Positions 10,206 through 12,143 of a DNA stretch of 17,466 nucleotides are shown here, one piece after another. The notes below the pieces were generated by a model. That model did not search any database, was not told where the DNA came from, and was given only the letters and a program-made list of their open reading frames with translations. This DNA is from a virus, in the UHGV virus genome UHGV-0282409. One strand, given 5' to 3'. The position numbers and the translations under genes were made by a program. Positions within the stretch are counted from its first letter, which is position 1; every line of letters begins with the position of its first letter.

Positions 10206-12143
10206 TCAGCCGCCGGACGCACTGCCGTAGTTCACTCCGGTGATCACCGCCACCGCCGCAGTACGGCGACGACGCCAGTTGATCCAGCGCTCCGCACGGA
10301 TGGCCACGCTGCCTGTCTGGAACATGGAAACCAGCTCCACCGGGGACGGCGTGGTACTGTCGCCGGTCGGCTCAGACTGCATTTCCAGTGATGCCTCGCG
10401 GGACATATCCACTGCCACGCCGCCGTCATCCGCCAGATAAATATCCGGGGCATTCACCAGCACCAGCTGGTCACCCACGTACTGGGAGACAATCACCGGC
10501 AGCCCCTGGAAGGAGCCACCCAGCAGGGTCATGTCCGGGTATTCCTTCTGACCCAGCGCATTTTTACGCATGGACAGTGCCAGGGCATTGGTGCTGGACA
10601 TCAGCCAGACCGCACCGGTGGGCTGCAGGTTTGCTGCCACAAACTGTCCAAACGCAGCCTCTGCATCCGCATCCGGGTTACCGGTTGATGCCGTGCCCTT
10701 CACATCATGGGTGATGGACGCCGGGGAGACATCTGCCACTGCGGCTTTTTTCGGGTCCACAAAGTCTGTATCCAGACGCGCCACCACCGCTTCCGCCAGC
10801 GCATTACGGACCAGTGCATCAGCAGCCGGACTGGAAAAACGGATCAATTCTTCCGTCAGTACCGCAATGGCCGACACCTTCGCATGACTGAAGGTGATGG
10901 ATTCAAAATCAAACTTCGTCAGGGGTTTTGCCTTACCCTCACCCACCCAGCCGGCAGCACCGCCGGACACCTGGGCGTGCACACGGATATTGAATGGCAC
11001 CTGACGAAGTGCAGGGATCCCGCCCTGACCAAATCGCCCGATAATGGTCTGCGGACGCAGGTAATCAATAAAGTCCTGTGCGTATTCCTGATATTCAGAC
11101 AGGCTGCCTGCCCACTGCGGATCCGTGGTGGTCCCCGCGCCCACTGCCGATTTCAGGACATGATGCAGACGACTGTCATCCGGATACTGACGACGGGCCA
11201 CTTCCAGGGCTTCAGATCGGACGCCTTTAGCCGCAGCCAGCGATTTGGCAAAGCGGGCGAAGCCAATCCCCTTATCCAGTTTCTGCTCCACACGGATCAC
11301 CGGCGCAGAAGCCACCGCGGCCACATTCCCGTTACCGGCCTGTTTCACCGGCTGCGCCGTGGCGGCCTTACCGGCTTCCAGTTCACGCAGGCGCTTCAGG
11401 TGCGCATCCACCTGACGGATTTCCGCTGCGGTGTTGTCGTAATGCTCTTCCTCCTCCACATCCAGCGTGCGCCCTTCCTCTGCGGCTTTGGTCATGACCT
11501 CCTCAAGGGAGGCTGCCAGCGCTGCACGCTTGTTTTCAAAACTTTTAATCTGTTCGCCAATATTCATTATGGTCTTTTCCTTATGAAAAACGGTTGTTGA
11601 CTGTGCCGCAGCGCCGGCAGAAGATGCGATTTTCACCACCGGTTTCCGGTTGCCGGACGCGGCAGAAAACGGGCGGTCGTAAGATTTAATGGTCCGGATG
11701 GTGCATTCCGCATTCGCGGGCACGGTGACGGCAGACACCTCCATCAGTTCCCAGCGCAGAAAATGCAGTCCGCCTCCGTCCAGAAAGGTGTATTCATGGG
11801 GACGGAAGCCCACGGACAGCCCCCTGACCAGCCCGGTCTTAATGGCCGCCCAGACCTCATCCAGCCGGGCAGCCAGTTGCGACGGCATATCCGGTACGGG
11901 CTTCACCAGTGTTGCCGTGATTTCCAGCCCTTCGCTGACCCGGCGCACCGTACACTGCCCCACCGGGCGGGAATGGTCATGCTGCCAGAGAAACGGGATC
12001 GCACTGCCAAACTCCGCGCCCTCCGGCTCCAGGATGTCACCATCCCGATCCGGAGAAGGCGTTGACGCAATCCCGGTGATCACCCGTTCATCCTCACTGA
12101 AGGATTTCACCGTCAGCAGGGAACAGGCCCGTTTAAGAGTCAC
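10206..12143 (-). CDS. prohead protease (HK97/S78-type) - scaffold-like delta domain - major capsid protein, in one ORF
   Basis: 645 aa. N-terminal ~155 aa has protease motifs (PFLWQHDHSRPVG...GLSVGFRP...LMEVSAVTVPAN). A charged, coiled-coil-like stretch follows (MNIGEQIKSFENKRAALAASLEEVMTKAAEEGRTLDVEEEEHY...KRLRELEAGKA). The C-terminal ~380 aa resemble HK97-fold capsid proteins. Start is GTG at 12141-12143 with AGGAGG 5 nt upstream. Confidence 0.8.
   Translation of the reverse strand: MTLKRACSLLTVKSFSEDERVITGIASTPSPDRDGDILEPEGAEFGSAIPFLWQHDHSRPVGQCTVRRVSEGLEITATLVKPVPDMPSQLAARLDEVWAAIKTGLVRGLSVGFRPHEYTFLDGGGLHFLRWELMEVSAVTVPANAECTIRTIKSYDRPFSAASGNRKPVVKIASSAGAAAQSTTVFHKEKTIMNIGEQIKSFENKRAALAASLEEVMTKAAEEGRTLDVEEEEHYDNTAAEIRQVDAHLKRLRELEAGKAATAQPVKQAGNGNVAAVASAPVIRVEQKLDKGIGFARFAKSLAAAKGVRSEALEVARRQYPDDSRLHHVLKSAVGAGTTTDPQWAGSLSEYQEYAQDFIDYLRPQTIIGRFGQGGIPALRQVPFNIRVHAQVSGGAAGWVGEGKAKPLTKFDFESITFSHAKVSAIAVLTEELIRFSSPAADALVRNALAEAVVARLDTDFVDPKKAAVADVSPASITHDVKGTASTGNPDADAEAAFGQFVAANLQPTGAVWLMSSTNALALSMRKNALGQKEYPDMTLLGGSFQGLPVIVSQYVGDQLVLVNAPDIYLADDGGVAVDMSREASLEMQSEPTGDSTTPSPVELVSMFQTGSVAIRAERWINWRRRRTAAVAVITGVNYGSASGG

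What the first reader, a model, noticed from the sequence alone, without database searches (positions are those of the whole stretch)
10206..12143. Protease, scaffold-like domain and capsid in one ORF, with a candidate internal in-frame start
One 645-aa frame encodes a prohead protease domain, a charged coiled-coil stretch and an HK97-fold capsid domain. No separate scaffold or protease gene is present in the head module. An in-frame ATG at 11565-11567 (MNIGEQIKSF..., codon 193) is preceded by AAGGA about 10 nt upstream. This could give a second, protease-free scaffold-capsid product, analogous to the nested lambda C/Nu3 arrangement. Relative use of the two starts would set the protease-to-capsid ratio.
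Basis: partly seen in the sequence, partly recalled or inferred. Interest (0 to 1): 0.45.

Follow-up and report, generated by a model that had tools for sequence, protein, structure and literature searches.

The report
Capsid gene nested inside protease-capsid fusion
A Shiga-toxin-phage-type head gene that fuses the maturation protease to the coat protein almost certainly also has a second, conserved internal start that makes ordinary protease-free coat protein, which would explain how such phages avoid one protease per coat subunit.

Summary
ORF 12143..10206 (minus strand, 645 aa) encodes an S78 prohead protease (residues 18-153), a disordered linker (154-191), a helical hairpin like the HK97 delta domain (195-262) and an HK97-fold coat domain (293-645). 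An in-frame ATG at 11567-11565 (M193) follows TAAGGA by 10 nt. In this sequence alone the Shine-Dalgarno (SD) site is unremarkable: 13% of in-frame positions score as well. Comparison is what makes it convincing. Across 126 distinct junctions (39-100% protein identity) the site is ATG in 119 and GTG in 7. An SD-like 4-mer lies 5-10 nt upstream in 123 of 125, against a 13% background, although the linker is otherwise unalignable. Every valine at the site uses GTG (chance 6e-4). The region is the GC minimum and among the least structured parts of the gene. Unfused relatives start their capsid gene at the same Met, some with a stop codon just upstream in the same frame. The fusion is already known and annotated. 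No paper or database record I could reach describes or annotates the nested start. No experimental data were available. It is a new variant of the nested protease/scaffold arrangement (lambda C/Nu3, herpesvirus UL26/UL26.5).

The parts
10206..12143 (-). Full-length ORF, 645 aa (69.0 kDa): protease, linker, delta-like domain and HK97-fold capsid protein
   Evidence: 100% identical in Escherichia phages vB_EcoS-569R3, -705R7 and -783R2, 99.8% in phage 2851
12149..12154 (-). Shine-Dalgarno AGGAGG of the upstream start, 5 nt before the GTG (anti-SD duplex -10.3 kcal/mol)
   Evidence: conserved as GGAGG/GGAGA before an ATG in Enterobacterales homologues
12141..12143 (-). Upstream start codon GTG (ATG in most homologues)
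11685..12092 (-). Prohead protease domain, residues 18-153 (Peptidase_S78). H55, S110 and E135 are invariant among 48 sequences at 36-53% identity to the window protein
11568..11684 (-). Disordered, poorly conserved linker, residues 154-192 (pLDDT below 50 for 154-191). It corresponds to the C-terminal tail of the protease in unfused relatives
11578..11583 (-). Internal Shine-Dalgarno TAAGGA, 10 nt before the ATG (anti-SD duplex -6.2 kcal/mol)
   Evidence: Positions -12..-9 are 94-99% purine across 123 junctions. An SD 4-mer is present in 123/125 junctions against a 13% background
11547..11597 (-). AT-rich, weakly structured translation-initiation region around the internal start. GC is 0.31 against 0.60 for the gene. 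Folding energy is -5.8 against a gene mean of -14.5 kcal/mol
11565..11567 (-). Internal in-frame start codon ATG (M193)
10206..11567 (-). Proposed nested gene: 453-aa (48.2 kDa) delta-domain plus capsid protein precursor without the protease
   Evidence: inferred from comparison; not shown experimentally
11358..11561 (-). Helical hairpin, residues 195-262 (pLDDT above 90), in the position and form of the HK97 delta (scaffold) domain
   Evidence: TIGR01554 (the HK97-type major capsid protein model) aligns from its position 3 at residue 204
10209..11267 (-). HK97-fold capsid protein body, residues 293-645

Best explanation
The gene is a nested, two-start gene. Ribosomes starting at GTG 12143 make a 69-kDa protease-linker-delta-capsid fusion. 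Ribosomes starting at the internal ATG 11567 make a 48-kDa delta-capsid protein, which is an ordinary HK97-type capsid precursor. The rest is inferred. Both products co-assemble through their identical delta and capsid parts. Each fusion subunit therefore carries one protease into the procapsid interior on a disordered tether of about 38 residues. No separate protease-targeting step or free scaffold is needed. After assembly the protease removes the delta domains and itself. The protease:capsid ratio is set by the relative output of the two initiation sites. Shown here: the domain anatomy, and the conservation of the start codon, the SD and an open AT-rich initiation region. Inferred: actual initiation, co-assembly, cleavage and the ratio.
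For: The start codon is conserved at the nucleotide level. M193 is invariant in 19 Enterobacterales homologues while the preceding linker varies and carries indels. Among 144 fused representatives of 50%-identity clusters, 129 have Met, 10 Val and 1 Leu at the site, and none has Ile. 126 distinct DNA junctions from genomes, viral contigs and metagenomes give 119 ATG and 7 GTG. All 7 Val codons are GTG, with a chance of 6e-4 given each gene's own Val codon usage. The SD is conserved through different amino acids (K-E, K-G, E-G, E-V, Q-G, T-G). An SD 4-mer is present in 123/125 junctions against 13% at other in-frame codons, with a spacer of 5-10 nt in 114 of 121. Many distant lineages have GGAGG, and 38 junctions have a duplex of -8 kcal/mol or stronger. 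By mean upstream SD energy, the M193 column ranks just after the annotated start. The only other comparably SD-like columns (residues 44-47 and 127-129, encoded by conserved Gly-rich motifs) lack start codons. The gene-wide GC minimum is at residue 197 (0.40 against 0.577 +/- 0.047). The -30..+20 window is among the least structured in the gene (median z +2.0 over 76 sequences). The second codon starts with AA in about 90% of junctions. Unfused relatives start the capsid gene at the aligned Met: proteins P0200, P0229, P0251, P0257 and P0264; L099, with TAA directly before the ATG in the same frame; L215 and L236; and Burkholderia vB_FUBS1, Moraxella Mcat6 and Stenotrophomonas SOVA965. M193 sits exactly at the boundary between the disordered linker and the first delta helix.
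Against: There is no experimental evidence. No proteomic, N-terminal sequencing or ribosome-profiling data were reachable. In the window itself the SD is only moderate (-6.2 kcal/mol; 13% of positions are as good), whereas the upstream start has the stronger SD (-10.3). Ribosomes elongating from the upstream start may occlude the internal site. The sequences are phylogenetically related, so the counts are not independent events. Part of the K/E-G pattern could also serve a protein-level role such as a cleavage site. The ratio of the two products cannot be predicted from sequence.
Confidence: 0.8

Rival explanations
1. Only the full-length polyprotein is made, so every capsid subunit carries its own protease and is auto-processed. 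The Met and the preceding K/E-G are conserved for protein reasons, such as the start of the first delta helix or a cleavage site.
For: The upstream start has the stronger SD. The window's internal SD is not unusual on its own. Met, Val and Leu are conservative hydrophobic substitutions for one another. Literature on such fusions treats them as single products (PMC5513430, PMC7302621). A rough volume estimate of my own suggests 415 protease-plus-delta units could fit inside a T=7 procapsid.
Against: Val at the site is always GTG (7/7, chance 6e-4), and Ile is absent. The SD-like purine block is kept through six different dipeptides and variable spacing in an otherwise unalignable, disordered linker. 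The GC minimum and the low structure are RNA-level features. Unfused relatives necessarily initiate at this codon.
Confidence: 0.1
2. The ATG and SD are a neutral relic of an ancestral two-gene arrangement (protease gene, then capsid gene) that fused by loss of a stop codon. They are no longer used.
For: Unfused relatives exist, and fused and unfused forms differ by as little as one codon or one frame.
Against: Fused genes span 39-100% protein identity. At least 140 of the 150 listed 50%-identity cluster representatives are fused, out of 12,577 proteins with E up to 0.001. Nearly all sampled junctions keep both the start codon and the SD, while the surrounding linker has diverged beyond alignment. 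Even near-identical E. coli variants changed 5 of the 6 spacer bases while keeping TAAGGA and ATG (L044/L045). A relic would have decayed.
Confidence: 0.05
3. The protease is released as a separate protein by recoding at the junction. This could be a frameshift on GTTTTTC into a frame that stops at TAA(TG), followed by re-initiation at the ATG, so little or no fusion protein is made.
For: In the window both alternative frames stop at the junction: TAA within TAAGGA, and TAATGA overlapping the ATG. A T-run also precedes the junction.
Against: The T-run is not conserved in homologues. The ATGA overlap follows trivially from a second codon that begins with A. The in-frame fusion is maintained across a very large, divergent clade, which argues that the fused product is made.
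Confidence: 0.03

Closest known systems
Lambda C/Nu3, and likewise herpesvirus UL26/UL26.5 and Mu I/Z: nested in-frame protease/scaffold genes (from my own knowledge of the field; not re-read here)
   Same: One reading frame carries the protease at the N-terminus. An internal in-frame start gives a shorter, C-terminally coterminal product that lacks the protease. The long form carries the protease into the procapsid through the shared C-terminal part. The ratio is set by the relative use of the two starts.
   Different: Here the shared C-terminal part is not a free scaffold. It is the major capsid protein itself with its built-in delta scaffold, so the long form would occupy a lattice position. 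The protease is of the S78 (HK97 gp4) type, not the lambda C type. Use of the internal start is inferred, not demonstrated.
HK97 gp4 protease plus gp5 capsid protein with delta domain
   Same: Both have an S78 protease, an N-terminal helical delta-like domain followed by an HK97 fold, and no separate scaffold gene.
   Different: In HK97 the two are separate genes, and the protease is recruited non-covalently; about 60 copies per 415 capsid subunits are cited in PMC12749128. Here they share one frame. The gene order is also unusual: terminase, protease-capsid, small ORF, portal.
Gifsy-2 tripartite capsid gene (Effantin et al. 2010, Virology 402:355, cited in PMC8538268; the paper itself is not held)
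   Same: One ORF encodes protease, scaffold-like region and capsid protein. I also found an invariant internal ATG (M221) with GAGGA 9 nt upstream, just after the protease domain, in 36 distinct junctions.
   Different: The protease is annotated as Clp-type. From my own knowledge, not tested here, the capsid protein resembles lambda gpE. The flanking residues (KRxEEFxxMP) are conserved there, so RNA-level and protein-level constraint cannot be separated.
'Capsid and protease fusion' genes of actinobacteriophages (clusters AM, AU, AN, EE, EL and others), Pseudomonas phage PAJU2 ORF003, and the NCBIfam family 'prohead protease/major capsid protein fusion protein'
   Same: The fused architecture is recognised and annotated as a single product (PMC5513430, PMC7302621; PAJU2 note; NF045541).
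   Different: None of these sources mentions an internal start. Klyczek et al. (PMC5513430) report little or no sequence similarity among the actinobacteriophage fusions; I did not compare them with this family. The window protein scores 54 bits against a 525-bit cut-off for NF045541. PAJU2 ORF003 is a true homologue (48% identity) and has the same MKT...EQI junction.

Membership tests
Peptidase S78 (HK97 gp4-type prohead protease) | Match to the family profile above the curated threshold | tested here: met
   PF04586 scores 34.7 bits against a cut-off of 21, at residues 48-152. TIGR01543 scores 46.5 bits, below its 59-bit equivalog cut-off.
Peptidase S78 (HK97 gp4-type prohead protease) | Conserved catalytic His and Ser | tested here: met
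   H55, S110 and E135 are invariant in 48 sequences at 36-53% identity to the window protein. Their equivalence to HK97 gp4 H65/S114 is from memory and was not aligned here.
HK97-type major capsid protein with N-terminal delta (scaffold) domain | HK97 fold | tested here: met
   Foldseek matches to HK97, D3, T5, Bxb1 and GTA capsids have E 1e-9 to 1e-15 and probability 1.00. PF05065 scores 53.1 bits. TIGR01554 scores 78.1 bits against a cut-off of 27.5.
HK97-type major capsid protein with N-terminal delta (scaffold) domain | An N-terminal helical domain of about 100 residues preceding the fold, removed by the protease | tested here: inconclusive
   A helical hairpin at 195-262 with pLDDT above 90, followed by a disordered stretch at 267-279, is present. 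Scaffold function and cleavage cannot be tested with these tools.
Nested in-frame protease/scaffold gene pair (lambda C/Nu3 type) | Protease at the N-terminus of a longer ORF that also contains the assembly (scaffold) module | tested here: met
Nested in-frame protease/scaffold gene pair (lambda C/Nu3 type) | Internal in-frame initiation codon with a ribosome-binding site downstream of the protease domain | tested here: met
   Present in the window and conserved in 126 junctions as ATG/GTG, with an SD motif in 123/125.
Nested in-frame protease/scaffold gene pair (lambda C/Nu3 type) | Both products demonstrated in infected cells or procapsids | not testable with these tools
   No proteomic or ribosome-profiling data were reachable. 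Literature searches found none.
NCBIfam NF045541 'prohead protease/major capsid protein fusion protein' | Score above the curated cut-off | tested here: not met
   54 bits against a 525-bit cut-off, and only residues 48-287 match. The architecture is the same but the sequence family is different.
Gifsy-2-type tripartite capsid gene | ClpP/S49-type protease module | tested here: not met
   The window protein has S78, and no Clp-type family appears among its Pfam hits. The Gifsy-2 gene is annotated as a Clp protease.

The most novel reading that the evidence does not exclude
A conserved internal start just after the protease module may be a general rule for protease-capsid fusion genes built on unrelated proteases: the S78 family here, the Clp-type Gifsy-2 family, and possibly the actinobacteriophage fusions. 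If so, thousands of phage and prophage genomes lack an annotation for their real, most abundant capsid precursor. The annotated 'fusion protein' would be a minority subunit whose job is to deliver a metered number of protease copies while occupying ordinary lattice positions.
Probability: 0.35. Interest if true: 0.6.

Novelty: new variant of a known kind. Interest (0 to 1): 0.5.

Why it matters
Protease-capsid fusion genes are repeatedly called 'unusual' in phage genome papers and are annotated as one product. That leaves unexplained how such phages avoid a 1:1 protease:capsid stoichiometry and how the protease is encapsidated. A conserved nested start gives a simple, testable answer: two products from one frame, with the protease tethered covalently to a subset of shell subunits. 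It also points to a systematic annotation gap. The 90%-identity E. coli cluster alone has 9,916 member sequences, and 12,577 proteins in the 50%-identity representative library match at E up to 0.001. It also offers inducible Stx phages (2851, BP-4795) and PAJU2 as experimental systems. It extends the lambda C/Nu3 and herpesvirus UL26/UL26.5 logic to a case where the shared module is the capsid protein itself.

Tried and rejected
(1) The single-sequence SD statistic is not significant: 12.8% of in-frame positions are as good, and 7 of the 48 other in-frame ATG/GTG codons are as good. I therefore relied on comparison instead.

(2) Programmed frameshift or termination-reinitiation at GTTTTTC...TAATGA. 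The T-run is not conserved, and the ATGA overlap is a trivial by-product of a second codon that begins with A. Rejected.

(3) The other strongly SD-like columns (residues 44-47 and 127-129) are explained by conserved Gly-rich peptide motifs and have no start codon.

(4) The sequence search of the PDB gave only one weak capsid match, Bxb1 at E 0.0017. The fold search was needed.

(5) Literature: ten searches found the fusion described but nothing on an internal start. The CBASS and CapRel papers were irrelevant. Effantin 2010 (Gifsy-2), Duda 2013 (HK97 protease) and Liu & Mushegian 2004 were requested and are not held. Uchiyama 2009 (PAJU2), a subscription-journal paper, was not requested, so I cannot exclude that one of these mentions it.

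(6) The ratio of the two products cannot be estimated. The upstream site has the stronger SD but a GTG codon and more local structure; the internal site has a weaker SD, an ATG and an open region.
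Full report
WHAT IS THERE. The window carries, on its minus strand, the late (head and tail) genes of a long-tailed Stx-phage-type prophage of the Pankowvirus group, which includes phages 2851, BP-4795, YYZ-2008 and 1717. The ORF 12143..10206 is 100% identical to the gene of Escherichia phages vB_EcoS-569R3, -705R7 and -783R2. It is 97-99.8% identical to those of many Stx1a/Stx2-converting phages. There it is annotated as one CDS: 'major head protein/prohead protease', 'capsid and scaffold' or 'major capsid protein'.

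The ORF starts at GTG 12143, 5 nt after AGGAGG, and ends at TGA 10206.
- Pfam finds Peptidase_S78 at residues 48-152 and Phage_capsid at 386-635, both above threshold.
- PHROG 617 covers the whole protein.
- An AlphaFold2 model built from 48 diverse homologues (mean pLDDT 82.9) shows four parts: a confident protease domain (18-153), a disordered stretch (154-191), a confident two-helix hairpin (195-222 and 229-262), and the capsid body (293-645).
- Foldseek matches the capsid body to the HK97, D3, T5, Bxb1 and GTA capsid proteins.
- H55, S110 and E135 are invariant across sequences only 36-53% identical to the window protein.
- Between the terminase remnant and the portal there is no other protease or scaffold gene, only a 73-aa ORF of unknown function.

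The in-frame ATG at 11567-11565 is codon 193. TAAGGA sits at 11583-11578, 10 nt upstream.

IS IT MORE THAN CHANCE? In this one sequence, no. The anti-SD duplex energy is -6.2 kcal/mol. 12.8% of in-frame positions do as well, and so do 7 of the 48 other in-frame ATG/GTG codons. The case rests on comparison.

COMPARATIVE EVIDENCE. The fusion is very widespread. 2,493 proteins scored E <= 1e-10 in the 90%-clustered database. In the 50%-clustered library 12,577 proteins scored E <= 0.001, and at least 140 of the best 150 representatives are fused.

In 19 Enterobacterales homologues (73-78% identity) M193 is invariant, while the roughly 20 residues before it vary and carry indels. Among 144 fused representatives at 38-54% identity, 129 have Met at the site, 10 Val and 1 Leu; none has Ile.

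I then fetched DNA for homologues from genomes, viral contigs, metagenomes and annotated phages. This gave 126 distinct junction sequences.
- Start codon: 119 have ATG and 7 have GTG.
- Shine-Dalgarno: 123 of 125 have an SD-like 4-mer in -18..-5, against 13% at other in-frame codons of the same genes. The spacer is 5-10 nt in 114 of 121.
- Base composition upstream: aligned on the start codon, positions -12 to -9 are 94-99% purine with almost no T.
- Amino-acid independence: the motif is encoded by different dipeptides in different lineages (K-E, K-G, E-G, E-V, Q-G, T-G), so the conserved entity is the RNA, not a residue. GC-rich lineages have a textbook GGAGG 7-8 nt before the ATG, with duplexes of -10 to -12 kcal/mol.
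- Valine codons: the seven lineages with valine at the site all use GTG. GTG is only 19-47% of valine codons in those genes, so the chance of seven out of seven is 6e-4.
- Column ranking: by mean upstream SD energy, the M193 column ranks just behind the annotated start. The only other comparably SD-like columns (residues 44-47 and 127-129) are encoded by conserved Gly-rich motifs and have no start codon.
- RNA accessibility: the gene-wide minimum of GC content is at residue 197 (0.40 against 0.577 +/- 0.047). The -30..+20 window around the start is among the least structured in the gene, with a median z of +2.0 over 76 sequences. In the window it folds at -5.8 against a gene mean of -14.5 kcal/mol.
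- Second codon: it begins with AA in about 90% of junctions.
- Close relatives: even among near-identical E. coli variants, 5 of the 6 spacer bases changed (accata to tcagca) while TAAGGA and ATG stayed (L044/L045).

NATURAL UNFUSED RELATIVES. Several homologous capsid proteins are separate genes that begin exactly at the aligned Met.
- Proteins: P0200, P0229, P0251, P0257 and P0264, where query positions 193-196 align to positions 1-5 of the protein.
- L099: the protease frame ends with TAA immediately before the ATG, in the same frame.
- L215 and L236: in-frame stops lie 2 and 5 codons upstream of the ATG.
- Burkholderia phage vB_FUBS1: the protease stop is the TAA of a TAAGGA-N10-ATG arrangement identical to the window's, but in frame.
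- Moraxella Mcat6 has an ATGA overlap. Stenotrophomonas SOVA965 has a 122-nt gap with AAGGAA before the ATG.

These phages must initiate capsid translation at this codon. Fused and unfused states differ by one codon or one frame. The unusual synteny of terminase, protease(-)capsid, small ORF and portal is shared.

MECHANISM. The best-supported reading is a nested two-start gene. It would give a 69.0-kDa protease-linker-delta-capsid fusion from GTG 12143 and a 48.2-kDa delta-capsid precursor from ATG 11567.

The following steps are inferred from established HK97 and lambda assembly biology, not shown here. The two products co-assemble through their identical delta and capsid parts. The fusion subunits place the protease inside the shell on the disordered tether. 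This replaces the non-covalent recruitment used by HK97, where about 60 protease copies accompany 415 capsid subunits (PMC12749128). The protease then removes the delta domains and itself.

The ratio cannot be read from sequence. The upstream site has the stronger SD (-10.3) but a GTG codon and more local structure. The internal site has a weaker SD, an ATG and an open, AT-rich region. I put 0.8 on the internal start being functional.

RIVALS.
- A single auto-processed polyprotein, with the Met and K/E-G conserved for protein reasons (0.1). This fails to explain the GTG-only valines, the dipeptide-independent purine block, the GC and structure minimum, and the unfused relatives.
- A neutral relic of an ancestral two-gene state (0.05). 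This is contradicted by retention across lineages whose linkers are no longer alignable.
- Recoding at the junction (0.03). It has no conserved slippery site.

WHAT IS KNOWN. The fused architecture is not new.
- It is annotated in Stx phages and in PAJU2 ('prohead protease fused capsid protein').
- NCBIfam has a family for it, NF045541, although this protein is not a member.
- It is described as an unusual feature of several actinobacteriophage clusters (PMC5513430, PMC7302621) and of Rhodobacter RcC phages.
- A Clp-type version exists in Gifsy-2 (Effantin 2010, cited).

Nested in-frame protease/scaffold pairs are classical: lambda C/Nu3, Mu I/Z and herpesvirus UL26/UL26.5 (my own knowledge). 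I found no paper or database record that annotates or discusses an internal start in a protease-capsid fusion. I therefore rate this a new variant of a known kind. It would interest phage-assembly specialists without surprising them, and it is directly testable.

A LEAD TOWARDS GENERALITY. In the Gifsy-2 gene (L113 22471-24561) an in-frame ATG at codon 221 lies just after the Clp protease domain, preceded by GAGGAG 9 nt upstream in an unstructured region. The ATG is invariant, with GAGGA kept, in 36 distinct junctions at 60-100% identity. There the surrounding residues (KRxEEFxxMP) are conserved too, so the signal is ambiguous.

LIMITS. All evidence is sequence-based. The sequences are related, so the counts overstate the number of independent events. 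No translation or proteomic data were available. The prophage in this window is itself truncated within terL (see noticed items), so this particular copy may not be expressed at all. The conclusion concerns the gene family.

Noticed in passing
window 13034-17466 (junction near 13033/13034): Similarity to E. coli genomes and phages ends at about 13033, inside the terminase large-subunit gene. Only the C-terminal 273 aa of the 439-aa ORF 12207-13526 match TerL. Beyond that, GC drops from about 0.58 to about 0.47, and no complete E. coli genome matches. The genes there are a DUF5689 / M949_1556-family lipoprotein (13571-14794, minus strand) and an ORF of more than 866 aa with no family hit (14866-17466, minus strand). 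The window is either a chimeric assembly or a prophage remnant joined to foreign DNA.
   Followed up: partly
window 12155-12182 (minus strand): A terminator-like hairpin (GAACCGCTCCGGCGGTTT) plus a T-run lies immediately upstream of the capsid gene's AGGAGG. The same GCGGGTTTTTTCGTTTC-AGGAGG arrangement is conserved in Enterobacterales homologues. Its role in a late operon that I presume is antiterminated is unexplained.
   Followed up: no
window 10159-10199 (minus strand): Directly after the capsid stop codon there is a strong SD (TAAGGAGG, 10199-10192), then a 7-bp GC hairpin (10189-10172). Only 30 nt downstream of the SD is the ATG (10161) of a 73-aa ORF. The hairpin might bridge the SD to the start, or it might be an mRNA-stabilising or terminator element.
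   Followed up: no
window 9940-10161 (minus strand): A 73-aa ORF (PHROG 829, unknown function) lies between the capsid and portal genes and overlaps the portal start at 9994. Small unnamed ORFs occupy the same position in PAJU2, Burkholderia vB_FUBS1 and Moraxella Mcat6.
   Followed up: no
window 7733-9994 (minus strand): The portal protein is unusually long: 753 aa here and 860 aa in phage 2851. The Phage_portal domain covers only residues 54-382. The C-terminal extension has a weak CBM_5_12 match and differs in length between relatives. It is split into two CDSs in ON470597.
   Followed up: no
L113 (phage Gifsy-2) 23131-23133, within CDS 22471-24561: The Clp-type tripartite protease-scaffold-capsid gene also has an internal in-frame ATG (M221) with GAGGAG 9 nt upstream in an unstructured region, just after the protease domain. 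The ATG is invariant in 36 distinct junctions (60-100% identity), but the flanking amino acids are conserved too.
   Followed up: partly
proteins P0001 (1079 aa), P0123 (1094 aa), P0132 (1091 aa): Some database proteins carry about 440 extra N-terminal residues before the protease-capsid part. P0001 has a terminase Pfam domain. These are either terminase-protease-capsid read-through fusions or gene-calling artefacts.
   Followed up: no
window residues 166-180 of the ORF (about 11604-11648, minus strand): Within the otherwise variable linker, a short motif (PVVK...AGA(T/A)A; PGAxG in distant homologues) is conserved. It is also present in the C-terminal tails of unfused proteases. It could be a protease cleavage site or a capsid-targeting signal.
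   Followed up: no
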